This document shows, piece after piece, positions 1-32,430 of a stretch of DNA of 37,853 bases. Both the position numbers and the translations under genes were made by a program. Source of the DNA: a virus. Its lineage: Duplodnaviria; Heunggongvirae; Uroviricota; Caudoviricetes. Position 1 is the stretch's first letter, and each line of letters begins with the position of its first letter. Below the pieces are notes generated by a model. The model saw nothing but the letters and a program-made list of their open reading frames with translations. It made no database searches and was not told where the DNA came from. The stretch is taken from the IMG/VR virus record IMGVR_UViG_2851971941_000003; one strand, 5' to 3'.

Positions 1-13
1 GATGAAAAGACTG

Positions 14-36
14 TAGGCTGAACTTTTGTCAGCCTA
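14..36 (+). terminator. Hairpin (8-bp stem taggctga / tcagccta, 7-nt loop) followed by a T-rich tract at the left window edge
   Basis: Perfect inverted repeat read directly from sequence; lies in AT-rich DNA left of the invertase remnant. Function not established. Confidence 0.3.
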
Positions 37-159
37 TTTATGTTCTTACTACTCTACATTACCTTCGTCATATCTGTATCCATGCAGCCATGTTAAAAAA
101 TCAACAGAAAAAACCATAAAATCTTCTTCGTATAATGTGTCAGGTATATTTTTTATTGA

Positions 160-276
160 ACTTTGTGCCACTGATTTTATCTTCAAAATCAACTCACATT
201 CTGCACAGTTCAACGAATTACGTTGCAGAGCGGTGTTCCGGTCATTTGTTGATACGCGTACATACCCAATAAGCAT
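160..276 (-). pseudogene. Serine invertase (Gin/Pin/Hin family) 5' remnant: about 38 N-terminal codons, frameshifted and truncated
   Basis: Minus-strand translation from 276 gives MLIGYVRVSTNDRNTALQRNSLNCAECELI, the invertase N-terminus with the catalytic-serine motif. Homology continues in another frame as FEDKISGTK, which implies loss of one T in a T-run near 184-188. Similarity stops near 160 and unrelated AT-rich DNA follows. Confidence 0.6.
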
Positions 277-330
277 GGTAGCTCCCCCTGGCAAAAGCAG
301 GAATGATGCCATTTGCTCGTTATTTCTGCA

Positions 331-356
331 TTTTCATAAACGTTGGTTTGGGAGAA
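331..356. repeat. 26-bp invertase crossover site (gix/hix/pix-like), left copy
   Basis: ttttcataaacgttggtttgggagaa. Its reverse complement matches the right copy at 2179-2204 at 21 of 26 positions and resembles remembered gix/hix consensus (TTnTCCnAAACC..GGTTT). It lies in-frame at the junction of an alternative fibre C-terminus. Confidence 0.6.
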
Positions 357-692
357 GCGGCAAAACGGAATGTGGGAACAGGGGAAAATCAGATACCAGA
401 TATGTCTGCATTTCCATCTGGCAAAAACTGGTTTCAGTTACCAAGTGGTCATATTGTCCAAATGTTTTCGATGAATGTTTATGGGGCGGACACTAACGGA
501 ACTACAGGTAATTTCCCTATTGCATTTCCTTCAGGCGCACTAGCTGTTAGTGCCTTATGGTCAGATGGCTCATTAACGGCTGCTCCGACCTTTAAACTTA
601 TGGGGTACACGACAACAAGGACATCAGTAACTTTAAAAGTATCAACCGGAAATGGTTTGTATGGAACTATGATTATCGCAATAGGAAGATAA
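357..692 (+). CDS. Promoterless alternative tail-fibre C-terminal (variable) domain, silent orientation of the invertible segment
   Basis: Open frame continuing from the crossover site (..INVGLGE|AAKRNVG..) with no fibre N-terminus of its own. It is followed immediately by a Tfa gene, the S'/U' arrangement of the Mu G segment. Confidence 0.5.
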   Translation, partial: AAKRNVGTGENQIPDMSAFPSGKNWFQLPSGHIVQMFSMNVYGADTNGTTGNFPIAFPSGALAVSALWSDGSLTAAPTFKLMGYTTTRTSVTLKVSTGNGLYGTMIIAIGR

Positions 693-693
693 T

Positions 694-1137
694 ATGAATC
701 AATATATTTATTCCCCTTCGGAAAATGCTTTTTATGCTGTTAATTTAAAAAACACTTATGAAGTAAATGGAACATGGCCTGCTGATGCATTAGATATTCC
801 TGATGACATTTCTGTAAAATATATGGCGGAACCGCCACAAGGGAAAATCCGAGTTGCAGGGGAAAATGGTTTTCCCACATGGGCTGAAATACCTCCACCA
901 TCACATGAGGAACTTATTGAACAGGCCGAATCAGAGAGGCAATTATTGATTAACCATGCCAACGAATACATGAACAGTAGGCAATGGCCTGGTAAAGCAG
1001 CTATTGGTCGCCTGAAGGGGGACGAGCTGGCGCAATATAATTTGTGGCTGGATTATCTGGACGCACTGGAACTGGTCGATACTTCCGGGGCGCCAGATAT
1101 TGAATGGCCTACGCCTCCGGCAGTTCAGGCCAGATGA
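694..1137 (+). CDS. Tail fibre assembly protein (Tfa), alternative-cassette copy
   Basis: 147 aa; the C-terminus DTSGAPDIEWPTPPA matches the conserved Tfa C-terminal motif (lambda Tfa DTSTAPDIEWP, from memory). Convergent with the second Tfa and overlapping it at the 3' end. Confidence 0.8.
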   Translation: MNQYIYSPSENAFYAVNLKNTYEVNGTWPADALDIPDDISVKYMAEPPQGKIRVAGENGFPTWAEIPPPSHEELIEQAESERQLLINHANEYMNSRQWPGKAAIGRLKGDELAQYNLWLDYLDALELVDTSGAPDIEWPTPPAVQAR

Positions 1138-1711
1138 CATCCGGCGCTGTGCTGGTATTTGTTGCCGTCACCGCGTCAATGTAATCCAGCACAGCGTTAA
1201 GCCGGGTTGTTTCTGCCTGCATCAACTTCCGTCCGGCCTGTAATTTCAGCTGAATCAGACTGATGGAAGCCATTGCAGCATCAATCAGTGACTGACGCTG
1301 TGCTTCTGCCGCGTCTACTGCGGCGCTATGCTGTGCCTCAGTATCGGTCACCCATTTCTCACCATCCCATTTATCGTATGGCGTTAATGGGGCGATAGTG
1401 GTTGTATTTTCGGGGTAATCACCCGGTGCTGTGATTTCTTTGGCATCTCCCGTTTCGGTGTTATAGACGATTTCACCGCGATGGTCTGGCACATATTCCC
1501 ATGAATTTAAATCTACAGAACGGCAAATTGTATAACCAGCCTTATATGTACCAGGAGCGTCTAAACAGGAATATGCTGGAATACCGACACCCACTGCAAG
1601 ATATTCAGTTGATGCAGAAATATATTCCCGAGTTTCACCATCGTAGTTATAGACGGTAATATTCCCCGCCTTCGTGGCAATAAACTCGCTATTTAATACT
1701 GCGTTATCCAT
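1109..1711 (-). CDS. Tail fibre assembly protein (Tfa), expressed-orientation copy
   Basis: 200 aa; C-terminus TSTAPDVIWPELPEA; sits immediately downstream of the tail fibre gene on the same strand. Confidence 0.8.
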   Translation of the reverse strand: MDNAVLNSEFIATKAGNITVYNYDGETREYISASTEYLAVGVGIPAYSCLDAPGTYKAGYTICRSVDLNSWEYVPDHRGEIVYNTETGDAKEITAPGDYPENTTTIAPLTPYDKWDGEKWVTDTEAQHSAAVDAAEAQRQSLIDAAMASISLIQLKLQAGRKLMQAETTRLNAVLDYIDAVTATNTSTAPDVIWPELPEA

Positions 1712-2481
1712 TATGCAGCCCTCACGATAAAGTTAAATGCAATATTTCGTGGACGGGTCTCACTCCCGCCAGTATTACCGATACTCCCTCGTGAATGAAG
1801 TGTCGGTGATGGGATCAGACTCCCTCCTGTATTTGTGGCATCAAGTCCCCGTCCTTGTGTGTATGTTTTTTTGAAAATCGTAGCCAGTTCCCATTCATCT
1901 TTTGTGTCGTAACCATCATTGGCAACAACAATATGGCGGTGTTTTTCCAGCATCCCAGCCTGAAGGCTCAATAAAGCACGTCCAGCATCAATACCACGCC
2001 CGTCATCCCAGCCACGAATAAACTCACCACGTAAATCTGGCAATTTATTTGTCGGGTAAGCCTTTGCCAGTTCCGGGTATTCTTCAGCAGAAAAAGCTGC
2101 TCCGTTGCATTTCAGCCAGCCTGTTGGCGGAGTGGCTGAAGGCCACGGAACAGGGACACCAACAGGTAATGCAGAGCCTTCTCCCAAACCAAGGTTTTCG
2201 AGAGCCGTTTTCACCGTGCCATCCGATTTGATATCGCCAAACGGATTTTTGCGACTTAACAGCAGCGCACGAAGCGCGGTAAGCAGCTGGTCGTGCCTCT
2301 CCTTCTCCAGGCTGGCACCGGATGCCTCCACCACGCTACAAAGCTCTTCCTGCAACATGTCAAAGTAGTCATCATCCAGATCGGTGGCAGGCGTGCCGGT
2401 CTGGGGGTTGCCACGGGTAAAACCGTTCTTACCCGCGCCGAACTTATCCTTCTGCGCGGTTTTCGTGTCTATGCGATGCAT
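1711..2481 (-). CDS. Tail fibre protein with phage tail-collar domain (constant N-terminus joined to variable C-terminus at the crossover site)
   Basis: 256 aa; tail-collar-like block [10 protein letters not shown]...[22 protein letters not shown] and C-terminal [13 protein letters not shown]. Crossover site copy 2179-2204 lies in-frame at codons 93-101 (ALENLGLGE). Confidence 0.8.
2179..2204. repeat. 26-bp invertase crossover site, right copy (inverted relative to 331-356)
   Basis: ttctcccaaaccaaggttttcgagag; position confirmed by codon arithmetic from the fibre ORF. Confidence 0.6.
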
Positions 2482-23240: not shown

Positions 23241-24332
23241 ATGAAGAAAATCGAAAAACTGTTCACTGAAGTAATACGGAAGTTGCGCCATAAGAAATTT
23301 ATGCGCTCGATAGCTAGTAAAAGAAGCACAACAGAAAGAAAGCTAAAACGTAATGGAAGTTTAAAAAAAATCGCTCCAGAGAAAATACTTGCTCCAACCA
23401 TACTTGATATTTACAAGGCGGAATATCATGAGAATGTGGTTAATTTTATAGAAAAAATAGAAAACAAAGCAAAGACAGGAAATAAAAAGATATATATATG
23501 TTTTAGAAATACAATTCATATATCGGCTGCTGCTGGCTTATTTCTTCTTGCAAAACTAGAGACGTTAAAAAGCAATCATAGGGACTTAAAATATATCGTA
23601 GCCAAACCGCCAATCAAAACTTCATCAAAAGGAGAACAGCACGTTGTTGATTCTGTTTTGAACAGAATCGGAATCTATGCAGCATTAGGTGTTAAATCAA
23701 GAGAAATGAGAGAAACTCCGTCTGTAAAATGTTGGGAGGTAATTCGTGGCGAACTAGTAGATTCGGAAATTGCAGGAAACTTATTAGAAACAATCACAGA
23801 AAAAATGGGTACCGATTATACAGATTTATATCGTCCCTTGATAGAAGCCATGTCTAATTCAGTAGAACATGCATATCGAGACGATTTATATGACTCAAAT
23901 AAAAATAACAATAAAAATAAATGGTGGTGCTTTGCTGCAATTATGAACAACAAGTTAATATTACTAATTTGTGACCTCGGTGTAGGTATACCTAAAACGT
24001 TAAAACTTACTCAAGGTGAAAAGGTTCTTGCAAAGCTAACCGAGTTCCTTGGTAAGCCATTAGTCCTTGATTCAGAACATATAAAAGCCTCATTGCAGGT
24101 TAAACGAACCCGAACAAAGCTTGGATACAGAGGGAAAGGAGGAACTGATTTACAATCTATCATAGAAAACTTTGAAAATGCACAATTACGAATTATATCC
24201 AACAAAGGAAATTACAGATATACTCATCGTAAGAAAGCAAGACCAGAGTTAATGTGGGATGCCAAACATTCCATCAACGGTACTATAGTTGAATGGAGCG
24301 TACCGCTACCAAATGAAGGAGACTCTCAATGA
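23241..24332 (+). CDS. GHKL-superfamily ATPase / RsbW-like kinase-fold protein with unassigned basic N-terminal domain
   Basis: 363 aa; N-box EAMSNSVEHAY (aa 202-212), G1 box DLGVG (aa 245-249), G2-like GYRGKGGTD (aa 296-304). AT-rich; stop overlaps the next start (ATGA). Confidence 0.75.
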   Translation: MKKIEKLFTEVIRKLRHKKFMRSIASKRSTTERKLKRNGSLKKIAPEKILAPTILDIYKAEYHENVVNFIEKIENKAKTGNKKIYICFRNTIHISAAAGLFLLAKLETLKSNHRDLKYIVAKPPIKTSSKGEQHVVDSVLNRIGIYAALGVKSREMRETPSVKCWEVIRGELVDSEIAGNLLETITEKMGTDYTDLYRPLIEAMSNSVEHAYRDDLYDSNKNNNKNKWWCFAAIMNNKLILLICDLGVGIPKTLKLTQGEKVLAKLTEFLGKPLVLDSEHIKASLQVKRTRTKLGYRGKGGTDLQSIIENFENAQLRIISNKGNYRYTHRKKARPELMWDAKHSINGTIVEWSVPLPNEGDSQ

Positions 24333-24646
24333 AAACCTTATTTATCAAGGACTTTTCAAGATTCCCGGGGCCTAGATACGAAAGGTTAGGTGAAAACAGT
24401 GGCGAAAAATTCCGCGATTTATTTTTGATACCAGCACTTAACGAAAATCCAGACTTAGTCATTGACTTTGATGGTGTTTTTGGCTATGGCTCATCTTTCC
24501 TTGAGGAGGCCTTTGGAGGTTTGGTGCGTAAAGGGATAGAGCGCGAAAAATTGGAGAAGCTTAAGAAGAATCTCAAAAGTAAAGATCAATACATTATTGA
24601 GGAAGTAATTTCATATATTGATGATGCTCTGCGAGATCTAAAATAA
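24329..24646 (+). CDS. STAS-like small protein (DUF4325-type), candidate partner of the ATPase
   Basis: 105 aa; block DFDGVFGYGSSFLEEAFGGL matches my memory of the DUF4325 STAS-like family; translationally coupled on both sides. Confidence 0.65.
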   Translation: MKTLFIKDFSRFPGPRYERLGENSGEKFRDLFLIPALNENPDLVIDFDGVFGYGSSFLEEAFGGLVRKGIEREKLEKLKKNLKSKDQYIIEEVISYIDDALRDLK

Positions 24647-25107
24647 TGGACACTGACGTTACTCAGAATTTATGGACAATGCCTGCAACGATTATAGCGA
24701 TTGTTGGCATTTTTTTAACAATATTAGGCTGGATAGTTACAGCAATACTTACTCGCATTAACAATGCGAAGAATTTAAAAAAACTAGAAATAAATAGACT
24801 TATTGATGAGTTATTTTATAAATTAGATTTTATTTATAGCGAAATGCTTGAATTGCTGCGAGACGATAAAAAAGACAAACAAGTCCTATATTACATTTTT
24901 ACATCATCAGTAAGGCATGTTGAGTTTATTTGCGAGCGAATTGAACTATTAGACAACAAAAAAAACAAAGACAATGGATTAATATCTGAATTAAGACAAG
25001 CATGTACTAACGATGCGAAATATGAAAAAGAAAAAATTGGAACAACATTACATGAAATCCAAAGCGCTAATGAAAAACTCAAAAACAAATATCTGAAATC
25101 ATTTTAA
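24646..25107 (+). CDS. Small membrane protein (one N-terminal TM helix, charged coiled-coil-like tail), candidate effector
   Basis: 153 aa; TM segment about aa 11-36 (TMPATIIAIVGIFLTILGWIVTAIL); start overlaps the previous stop (TAATG). Confidence 0.6.
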   Translation: MDTDVTQNLWTMPATIIAIVGIFLTILGWIVTAILTRINNAKNLKKLEINRLIDELFYKLDFIYSEMLELLRDDKKDKQVLYYIFTSSVRHVEFICERIELLDNKKNKDNGLISELRQACTNDAKYEKEKIGTTLHEIQSANEKLKNKYLKSF

Positions 25108-31993: not shown

Positions 31994-32248
31994 TTGATTT
32001 TCCTTTTATGTATACGGGCTTAAAAGGATACCACCGAGCCTGAAGTGGTGAAAAGACAGGCACATAACAGCTAAGTATTTTCAACCAAAGAGAATCCTTA
32101 GCGTTGTGGTGAATGCGGCTCAGCGCACGCGGGTTAAGGTTGAGGCTGACAGTCGACCTTCTGTGGATACCCACCCGCCTGGTGTGCAACCTTCGCCAGG
32201 CACCGGGAGGCACCCGGCACCACAACTTTATGCTGTGTGTAGTCCTGG

Positions 32249-32294
32249 CGGTACCAGCTTGTACCCTTGCTTCCGGCTGGTACCGTCCTTTTTA
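32249..32294 (+). terminator. Rho-independent terminator in the early-left leader
   Basis: 10-bp stem cggtaccagc/gctggtaccg with 17-nt loop, followed by tcctttttac. Confidence 0.5.
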
Positions 32295-32382
32295 CAAAAC
32301 AGAGAAGAGCATCACCGGACGACGGGCTCATAACCCAATCCATCCGGGCGGCTGCCACCGCAGGTGTTCTTCTCTGTTTTGT
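32294..32382. repeat. 15-bp perfect inverted repeat (acaaaacagagaaga / tcttctctgttttgt) enclosing a 59-nt GC-rich core
   Basis: Read directly from sequence; immediately upstream of the first early-left gene. Confidence 0.5.
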
Positions 32383-32430
32383 GGAGAAACTAATCGGCCT
32401 TGCAGGGTCGATATGATGAGGAGCAGCAAA

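What the first reader, a model, noticed from the sequence alone, without database searches (positions are those of the whole stretch)
160..276. The invertase that should drive the segment is a frameshifted, truncated stump
Seen: minus-strand translation from 276 gives a canonical serine-invertase N-terminus (MLIGYVRVSTNDRNTALQRNSLNCAECELI). The frame then breaks; homology resumes for nine codons in another frame (FEDKISGTK), implying loss of one T in a homopolymer near 184-188. It ends abruptly near 160, where unrelated AT-rich DNA begins. Inference: the switch is locked in its current orientation unless a Pin/Gin-like enzyme from elsewhere in the genome acts in trans. The junction near 160 may mark a deletion or the decayed prophage end.
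Basis: partly seen in the sequence, partly recalled or inferred. Interest (0 to 1): 0.45.

Follow-up and report, generated by a model that had tools for sequence, protein, structure and literature searches.

The report
Dead invertase stump, switch still flips
The DNA-flipping enzyme gene beside this E. coli prophage's tail-fibre switch really is a 39-codon, frameshifted remnant. The switch is not frozen, though: identical copies of the locus occur in both orientations in public assemblies, so an enzyme encoded elsewhere must be turning it.

Summary
Window 161-276 (minus strand) is the first 39 codons of a Pin/Gin-type serine DNA invertase. It carries a 1-nt deletion in the run at 185-188, and homology to intact pinE stops at base 160. 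RefSeq already annotates it as a frameshifted, incomplete recombinase pseudogene.

- **Not the prophage end.** The junction at 160 is an internal deletion or replacement joint with a cargo block. That block holds the DUF4145 gene, its terminator hairpin and the 3' remnant of a small convergent ORF. The prophage's distal thrW att repeat lies 5.1 kb further left.
- **Not locked.** All cis parts survive: two 26-bp pix sites (331-356 and 2179-2204), both fibre and chaperone cassettes, and the stretch homologous to the annotated P1 cin enhancer (window about 187-258, inside the stump).
- **Both orientations exist.** The exact same stump haplotype is found flipped. One 36-kb metagenome contig is 100% identical over 6,312 nt to the in-silico flipped window. 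Three short-read contigs are also flipped, and two more end at the pix repeat.
- **A third site.** One assembly shows a second inversion through a third pix-like site in the cargo, joined exactly at the central AA.

This is an orphan member of a known kind, served in trans. The source of the acting invertase was not identified.

The parts
161..276 (-). pin pseudogene stump: codons 1-39 of a Pin/Gin-type serine invertase, including the Ser10 motif GYVRVST, in 116 nt
   Evidence: RefSeq pseudogene annotation at the same coordinates.
185..188 (.). Homopolymer with the 1-nt deletion: A4 on the + strand here, A5 in intact pinE, gin and cin. This is the -1 frameshift after codon 30.
   Evidence: Identical in all stump copies.
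160..161 (.). Deletion or replacement junction. Homology to intact pinE ends here, at the first base of codon 40.
187..258 (.). Stretch positionally homologous to the annotated enhancer of Cin-mediated inversion (nt 19-90 of P1 cin). The conserved blocks GTATCAACAAATGA and GCAG(G/A)ATGTGA are kept.
   Evidence: P1 record feature. Gap-free alignment of cin, gin, pinE and the stump. Fis binding was not tested.
49..136 (-). 3' remnant of a small (about 90 aa) ORF that lies convergent to the DUF4145 gene in other enterobacteria. Bases 137-159 are of unclear origin.
   Evidence: 85% DNA identity of window 1-117 to the Yokenella, Superficieibacter and UViG loci. Alignments.
49..312 (-). Chimeric 87-aa ORF: upstream ATG, pin codons 1-30, 9 out-of-frame codons, then the remnant of the small ORF in its own frame. 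Gene callers predict it; no function is implied.
13..37 (+). Terminator-like hairpin just after the stop codon of the DUF4145 gene, which ends immediately left of window base 1
331..356 (-). pixL, a 26-bp recombination site (TTCTCCCAAACC-AA-CGTTTATGAAAA on the minus strand). The crossover dinucleotide is at 343-344.
   Evidence: Same repeat as published for e14 (PMC12529663). All orientation breakpoints fall here.
2179..2204 (+). pixR, a 26-bp recombination site (TTCTCCCAAACC-AA-GGTTTTCGAGAG). The crossover dinucleotide is at 2191-2192, inside the tail-fibre gene.
357..692 (+). Silent alternative fibre C-terminal cassette (gp53-like). It is open, and after inversion it gives an in-frame 212-aa fibre.
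   Evidence: A 212-aa fibre gene is actually called in the flipped contig L017.
694..1137 (+). Silent tail-fibre assembly (chaperone) gene belonging to the alternative cassette
1109..1711 (-). TfaE-like tail-fibre assembly gene, currently in the expressed position
1711..2481 (-). Tail-fibre gene (256 aa): a constant N-terminal part (about 2205-2481) joined at pixR to the currently expressed variable part (1711-2178)

Best explanation
The window begins inside the cargo end of an e14/SfV-like E. coli prophage integrated at thrW. Its tail-fibre host-range switch is a roughly 1.85-kb invertible segment between two 26-bp pix sites. The switch has lost its own invertase. A deletion or replacement fused pin codon 39/40 to the 3' flank of a DUF4145 cargo cassette, and a 1-nt deletion shifts the frame after codon 30. 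The stump therefore cannot make an enzyme.

Everything the reaction needs in cis is still present. Both pix sites carry matching AA cores. Both fibre and chaperone cassettes are intact. The first 90 nt of the gene remain, which in the related cin gene are the Fis-dependent enhancer.

The segment still inverts. It is flipped by a Pin/Gin/Cin-type invertase made elsewhere, either in another prophage, on a plasmid, or by an infecting phage.

**Shown:** the pseudogene state, the junction, intact sites and cassettes, and both orientations of the identical haplotype with breakpoints at the pix cores.

**Inferred:** that the enhancer-homologous stretch is functional, that a single deletion made the junction, and which enzyme acts.
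For: **Pseudogene and junction.**

**Prophage context.** The tRNA-Thr and integrase are at the far end of the window. The 48-bp att repeat is 5.1 kb left of base 1.

**Sites and cassettes.** The pix sites and the in-frame 212-aa alternative fibre are shown.

**Enhancer.** The P1 record annotates the enhancer at nt 19-90 of cin. The alignment is gap-free. Published work places the Hin enhancer (65 bp) about 100 bp from hixL (PMC3798978). It also reports three Fis sites inside the gin coding region (PMC3378877).

**Flipping of the identical haplotype.**
- L017 is 100% identical over 6,312 nt to the in-silico flipped window.
- L020, L021 and L022 run through pixL into the flipped arrangement at 100%.
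- L016, L018 and L025 have the window's orientation.
- L023 and L024 end at 354 and 357, the end of the shared 20-nt repeat.

**Flipping in older lineages.** EC6563 and UViG 2681813166 share a 99.6% identical left arm with the same stump but have opposite orientations. The change occurs at the pix site.

**Signature of a serine invertase.** Contig L019 carries hybrid sites between pixL or pixR and a third site X, joined exactly at the central AA/TT.

**Precedent for trans action.** PinQ of prophage Qin inverts the e14 P segment (PMC12529663).

**No other source nearby.** No other pin-like sequence lies in the 59 kb around the locus.
Against: - The trans-acting enzyme was not identified.
- Three of the four complete genomes with the identical locus have one further chromosomal match to a query made of the DUF4145 region plus the pinE C-terminal 438 nt. 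Its position, which part of the query it matches, and its intactness are unknown. The B1172 chromosome has no such match.
- All four complete genomes, two metagenome contigs and one UViG show the window's orientation. Switching may therefore be slow or strain-dependent.
- Fis binding and enhancer function of the stump were not tested. The stump differs from intact pinE inside the putative distal block (GCAGAATGTGAGT against GCAGGATGTGAGC).
- Keeping nt 1-90 is expected for 84% of random deletion endpoints within the gene, so retention is not evidence of selection.
- An ancestor with intact pin next to the DUF4145 cassette was not found.
Confidence: 0.8

Rival explanations
1. Locked relic: with its invertase dead, the segment is frozen in the present orientation and the silent cassette is merely decaying.
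For: The stump cannot encode an enzyme. All four complete genomes with the identical locus have the same orientation. The B1172 chromosome has no other pin-like DNA match.
Against: - The identical haplotype is found flipped at 100% identity over 6.3 kb.
- Flipped contigs come from several independent samples.
- Some contigs end at the repeat.
- Both silent ORFs are intact.
- Diverged stump lineages differ in orientation.
Confidence: 0.08
2. The orientation differences come from homologous recombination with other prophages or from assembly artefacts, not from site-specific inversion after the truncation.
For: Tail-fibre cassettes are mosaic. Cassette identity between the stump lineages is only 90-93%, against 97-99.6% in the flanks. 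Short-read contigs can be chimeric.
Against: - The flipped and unflipped versions are 100% identical on both sides and inside the segment.
- The breakpoints coincide with the 20-nt shared repeat and, in L019, with the 2-bp core.
- A 20-nt repeat is too short for efficient RecA recombination and shorter than the assemblers' usual k-mer. This last point rests on general knowledge.
- EC6563 and L008 are identical right up to the site.
Confidence: 0.07
3. Sequencing or assembly error: the gene is really intact and full length.
For: The frameshift lies in a homopolymer, a classic error site.
Against: - The C-terminal 438 nt are absent, not merely shifted.
- The same sequence appears in 4 complete genomes, 4 metagenome or viral contigs and 44 blocks of independent assemblies.
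- It also appears in diverged lineages.
Confidence: 0.01
4. The junction at 160 is the decayed end of the prophage, and the DNA to the left is host chromosome.
For: Composition and homology change abruptly at 160.
Against: - The distal att repeat (48 bp of thrW) lies 5.1 kb further left. Next to it is the integrase remnant of the neighbouring vat island.
- In EC6563 the same stump and DUF4145 block is followed by retron Ec48 before the att repeat and the pao genes.
- The DNA left of 160 is a mobile DUF4145 cassette that sits in defence-island-like contexts in other genera.
Confidence: 0.02

Closest known systems
e14 P segment with PinE (E. coli K-12)
   Same: It uses the same pix repeat (TTGGTTTGGGAGAAG...) inside a tail-fibre gene. 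It has two alternative fibre C-termini with their own Tfa chaperones, and the invertase gene starts about 55 bp from the site and reads away from the segment. The retained 39 residues are 35/39 identical to a PinE.
   Different: Here the invertase is reduced to 39 frameshifted codons. The prophage sits at thrW, not icd. The DNA downstream of pin is a DUF4145 cargo block, not the e14 arrangement.
Mu G segment with Gin, and P1 C segment with Cin
   Same: They belong to the same family of Fis/enhancer-dependent serine invertases, with 26-bp sites, a 2-bp core and an enhancer inside the 5' part of the invertase gene. The stump aligns without gaps to nt 1-88 of gin and cin, including the annotated cin enhancer.
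   Different: Those systems encode their own active enzyme. In P1 the gene faces the segment, so the enhancer is about 500 bp from cixL.
Cross-prophage inversion of the e14 P segment by PinQ of Qin (Kirigo et al. 2025, PMC12529663)
   Same: An invertase from one prophage flips the tail-fibre segment of another. In that study 33% of the deposited genomes examined had the segment inverted.
   Different: In K-12 the cognate PinE is also present and active. The paper reports the pinE deletion mutant as locked. Here the cognate gene is naturally dead but keeps its first 116 nt, and flipping is still seen.
Quasi-recombination sites and multi-site inversion systems (quasi-cix sites of Cin; Min of p15B). 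This comparison is from my own knowledge and was not checked in a paper here.
   Same: A third site X (TTCTATAAACTC-AA-GGTTTATTACTA) has one good half-site, one poor half-site and a matching AA core. It recombined with pix exactly at the core.
   Different: It was seen in one contig only. X lies in a cargo gene, not in a fibre gene. Whether it is a chance quasi-site or a used site is unknown.

Membership tests
Serine DNA invertase (Hin/Gin/Cin/Pin), as a functional enzyme | N-terminal catalytic motif with the nucleophilic serine (GY.RVS..DQ) | tested here: met
   MLIGYVRVSTND is present. Pfam Resolvase E=1.5e-6 over residues 3-39. 35/39 identical to PinE. In this window Q13 is changed to R; it is still Q in EC6563.
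Serine DNA invertase (Hin/Gin/Cin/Pin), as a functional enzyme | Complete catalytic domain (about 140 residues) in one open frame | tested here: not met
   Only 39 codons remain and the frame breaks after codon 30. The Pfam match covers profile positions 2-46 of 145.
Serine DNA invertase (Hin/Gin/Cin/Pin), as a functional enzyme | C-terminal helix-turn-helix DNA-binding domain | tested here: not met
   No match to PinE residues 40-184 at the locus or anywhere in the surrounding 59 kb, by tblastn and blastn.
Din-type invertible tail-fibre segment (G, C and P segments) | Two 26-bp sites in inverted orientation with identical central dinucleotide | tested here: met
   Sites at 331-356 and 2179-2204, both with an AA core, and 20 nt identical.
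Din-type invertible tail-fibre segment (G, C and P segments) | One site inside the fibre gene, so that inversion swaps the C-terminal part and the chaperone | tested here: met
   The current fibre is 256 aa. The in-silico flipped fibre is 212 aa and in frame. A 212-aa fibre followed by the 147-aa chaperone is called in the naturally flipped contig L017.
Din-type invertible tail-fibre segment (G, C and P segments) | Both orientations occur in nature | tested here: met
   for the identical haplotype. for the diverged lineages.
Din-type invertible tail-fibre segment (G, C and P segments) | Fis-bound enhancer in cis | tested here: inconclusive
   The stretch homologous to the annotated cin enhancer (nt 19-90) is wholly retained at window about 187-258. 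Binding and function cannot be tested with these tools.
Din-type invertible tail-fibre segment (G, C and P segments) | Cognate invertase gene adjacent | tested here: not met
   Only the stump is present. The system is an orphan.

The most novel reading that the evidence does not exclude
The locus may be more than an orphan two-site switch. Site X lies in the first cargo gene, 2.05 kb left of pixL. With it, the block carrying the two hypothetical genes, the DUF4145 gene and the enhancer-bearing stump would itself be invertible. That would make a three-site, shufflon-like system driven entirely by a foreign invertase. It would switch the cargo (possibly defence) operon on and off as well as changing phage host range. 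On this reading the stump persists because it supplies the enhancer for both inversions.
Probability: 0.12. Interest if true: 0.55.

Novelty: new member of a known kind. Interest (0 to 1): 0.3.

Why it matters
A pseudogene call next to an invertible segment is usually read as 'switch dead'. Here public assemblies show the opposite. The cis elements outlive the enzyme, and the prophage's host-range switch keeps working on invertases borrowed from other elements in the cell. This matters in three ways:
- **Annotation.** The orientation, and hence the predicted fibre protein, is not fixed.
- **Host range.** Predictions for induced prophages need to allow for both fibres.
- **Prophage interactions.** It fits recent work showing that invertases of one cryptic prophage rearrange another.

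It does not change any principle. Cross-complementation among Hin, Gin, Cin and Pin has long been known.

Tried and rejected
- **Locating the other pin-like locus in FDAARGOS_1267.** Composite queries made of a unique bait plus pinE only gave counts of places: 2 in three genomes and 1 in B1172. The search tool lists only the best place per record, so position and intactness stayed unknown. The extra match could in principle be to the DUF4145 bait. No control search was run.
- **Nothing pin-like nearby.** No further pin-like sequence lies within the 59 kb around the locus.
- **Classical enhancer papers** (PMC4384473, PMC400844, PMC146962) are not held. I used the P1 GenBank feature and two held papers instead.
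- **My own scan for Fis-like 15-mers** gave plausible proximal and distal blocks. It is not a test, and I do not rely on it.
- **Searching for an ancestor with intact pin beside the DUF4145 cassette.** None was found in complete E. coli genomes. The junction pattern is absent from the species-representative genomes. DUF4145 relatives in other genera have no pin nearby.
- **PADLOC on the cargo proteins** gave only a weak PD-T7-4 hit for DUF4145, E=0.0034.
- **Selection for keeping the enhancer** was considered and rejected. A random endpoint within the gene keeps nt 1-90 in 84% of cases.
- **Programmed frameshifting** was rejected, because the C-terminal 146 codons are simply absent.

Full report
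**What is at 160-276.** Translating the minus strand from 276 gives MLIGYVRVSTNDRNTALQRNSLNCAECELI followed by unrelated residues. The frame one base over reads FEDKISGTK and then stops. With one T restored, the 39-residue peptide matches Pfam Resolvase (E=1.5e-6, above the curated cut-off). It is 35/39 identical to an intact PinE from strain ET670; the 15 nucleotide differences are 11 synonymous and 4 not. A gap-free alignment with P1 cin, Mu gin and intact pinE over nt 1-88 places the lesion in the run at window 185-188, which has four A on the plus strand against five in the intact genes. Homology to intact pin genes stops at base 160, the first base of codon 40. So 146 of 185 codons are gone, including most of the catalytic domain and the entire DNA-binding domain. 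RefSeq already annotates this stretch as a frameshifted, incomplete recombinase pseudogene.

The lesion is not a sequencing artefact. The same junction and frameshift occur in four complete genomes, two metagenome contigs and two IMG/VR contigs. They also occur in two diverged lineages. The exact 87-aa ORF across the junction is recorded in 44 blocks of public assemblies.

**Where it sits.** The window is E. coli, 100% identical to FDAARGOS_1267. It covers an e14/SfV-like prophage with an HK97-type head and a Mu-type baseplate and tail. Its tyrosine integrase abuts tRNA-Thr (thrW) next to proA.

The junction at 160 is not the prophage end. A 48-bp copy of the thrW 3' part lies 5.1 kb to the left of base 1, beside the integrase remnant of the neighbouring vat island. 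Five cargo genes lie between that repeat and the stump: a PLP aminotransferase, a DMT transporter, two hypothetical genes and a DUF4145 gene whose stop codon is immediately left of base 1.

Window 1-117 is 85% identical to the DNA downstream of DUF4145 homologues in Yokenella, Superficieibacter and an uncultivated viral contig. There the gene sits among defence-like genes and has no pin nearby. This flank contains a terminator-like hairpin at 13-37. It also holds the 3' end of a small ORF convergent to DUF4145, whose remnant can be followed to about base 136.

The simplest history is therefore one deletion, or an illegitimate replacement, that fused pin codon 39/40 to the last third of that small ORF. 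This is inferred; no ancestor with both genes intact was found. By chance or not, the 1-nt deletion puts pin codons 1-30 in frame with that remnant. That is why gene callers predict an 87-aa protein.

**The switch itself.** Two 26-bp sites of the e14 pix type lie at 331-356 and 2179-2204, both with an AA core and 20 nt identical. The same repeat is published for e14 (PMC12529663). pixR lies inside the 256-aa tail-fibre gene (1711-2481). Inversion in silico gives an in-frame 212-aa fibre that uses the silent cassette at 357-692, followed by its own chaperone at 694-1137. All four cassette ORFs are open.

The P1 GenBank record annotates the enhancer of Cin-mediated inversion at nt 19-90 of cin. 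The homologous stretch of the stump is window about 187-258, 86-157 bp from the pixL core and wholly retained. This fits published statements. The Hin enhancer is 65 bp long and about 100 bp from hixL (PMC3798978). Three Fis sites lie within the gin coding region (PMC3378877). Whether the stump still binds Fis is not shown. Because 84% of random endpoints within the gene would keep nt 1-90, retention is not evidence of selection.

**Is it locked? No.** Looking up the 87-aa junction ORF returned contigs that all carry the identical stump. Compared with the window and with an in-silico flipped window, they fall into four groups:
- A 36-kb JGI contig (L017) is 100% identical over 6,312 nt to the flipped version. 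It has the predicted 212-aa fibre gene.
- Three Logan contigs (L020-L022) also run through pixL into the flipped arrangement at 100%.
- Three contigs (L016, L018, L025) have the window's orientation.
- Two contigs (L023, L024) end at 354 and 357, the end of the repeat shared by both orientations. That is what a mixed population would produce in a graph assembler. This reading is an inference.

On an older time scale, strain EC6563 and UViG 2681813166 share a 99.6% identical left arm, with the same stump and a retron Ec48 in the outer cargo slot. They hold the segment in opposite orientations, and the change falls at the pix site.

One more contig (L019) shows a double inversion that uses a third site, X. 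X reads TTCTATAAACTC-AA-GGTTTATTACTA and lies at L001 10275-10300, inside the first hypothetical cargo gene, 2.05 kb left of pixL. Both hybrid junctions are joined exactly at the central dinucleotide. That is the signature of a serine invertase, not of homologous recombination or misassembly. X is identical in all stump-bearing loci.

**Who does the flipping.** No other pin-like sequence lies in the 59 kb around the locus, and the annotation lists none in the prophage. The enzyme must therefore come from elsewhere.

Three of the four complete genomes with the identical locus have one further chromosomal match to a query made of the DUF4145 region plus the pinE C-terminal 438 nt. The B1172 chromosome has none, and EC6563 has three. 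I could not obtain the positions of these matches or judge whether they are intact genes.

Trans action has direct precedent. PinQ of prophage Qin inverts the e14 P segment (PMC12529663). From general knowledge, Hin, Gin, Cin and Pin complement one another.

**Verdict.** The 'prophage end' idea is refuted, and the 'deletion' idea is supported in modified form. This is an orphan member of the Din class of invertible tail-fibre segments. It is worth a note, mainly as a caution against reading a dead invertase as a dead switch, and for the extra site X. It is not a new kind of system.

Noticed in passing
L001 10275-10300 (about 1.7 kb left of window base 1); contig L019 555-580 and 2612-2637: A third pix-like site X lies inside a 95-aa hypothetical cargo gene. 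In one Logan assembly (ERR1543398) the 2.05-kb block between X and pixL is inverted as well as the fibre segment. That block holds the rest of that gene, a second hypothetical gene, the DUF4145 gene and the pin stump. Both joints fall exactly at the AA core. The inversion truncates the 95-aa gene to about 51 codons.
   Followed up: partly
window 49-312 (-): The 1-nt deletion places pin codons 1-30 in frame with the 3' remnant of a small ORF that is convergent to DUF4145 in other genera. The result is an 87-aa chimeric ORF that gene callers predict in 44 blocks of public assemblies. There is no evidence that it is expressed or functional.
   Followed up: partly
L001 10165-12000; L004 5871-10365; L014 1-8546: The slot between pin and the distal att site is a variable cargo region. 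This lineage has two hypothetical genes and DUF4145, plus a DMT transporter and a PLP aminotransferase. EC6563 and UViG 2681813166 have the same three genes plus retron Ec48. In Yokenella, Superficieibacter and a UViG, the DUF4145 cassette sits beside genes that look like a kinase, a receiver and a receiver-nucleosidase system, and a RelA/SpoT-like gene. The defence role is only suggested: the PADLOC PD-T7-4 hit has E=0.0034.
   Followed up: partly
L001 6355-6890 and 1137-5267: The prophage lies in tandem with the vat (vacuolating autotransporter toxin) island at thrW. The 48-bp att repeat is followed by a truncated Arm-DNA-binding integrase remnant, a MarR regulator gene and vat.
   Followed up: no
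L001 9623-9957: A roughly 335-bp unannotated stretch between the DMT transporter gene and the cargo genes matches 5,315 of 5,426 E. coli genomes at about 85% identity, usually in two places. Several short-read contigs break inside it, at L001 9721. Its identity is unknown.
   Followed up: no
window about 23241-25107 (+): Three genes lie on the opposite strand between the holin and the Q antiterminator: a 363-aa hypothetical, a STAS-like domain protein and a 142-aa hypothetical. They look like a moron or cargo insertion.
   Followed up: no
window about 32106-32416 (+): RefSeq marks a second frameshifted pseudogene (a hypothetical protein) in the early region of the prophage.
   Followed up: no
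L022 1622-1936; L023 1534-1902: In two Logan contigs the second hypothetical cargo gene is called at 104 or 122 aa instead of 146 aa. This suggests indel variants of that gene among otherwise near-identical loci.
   Followed up: no
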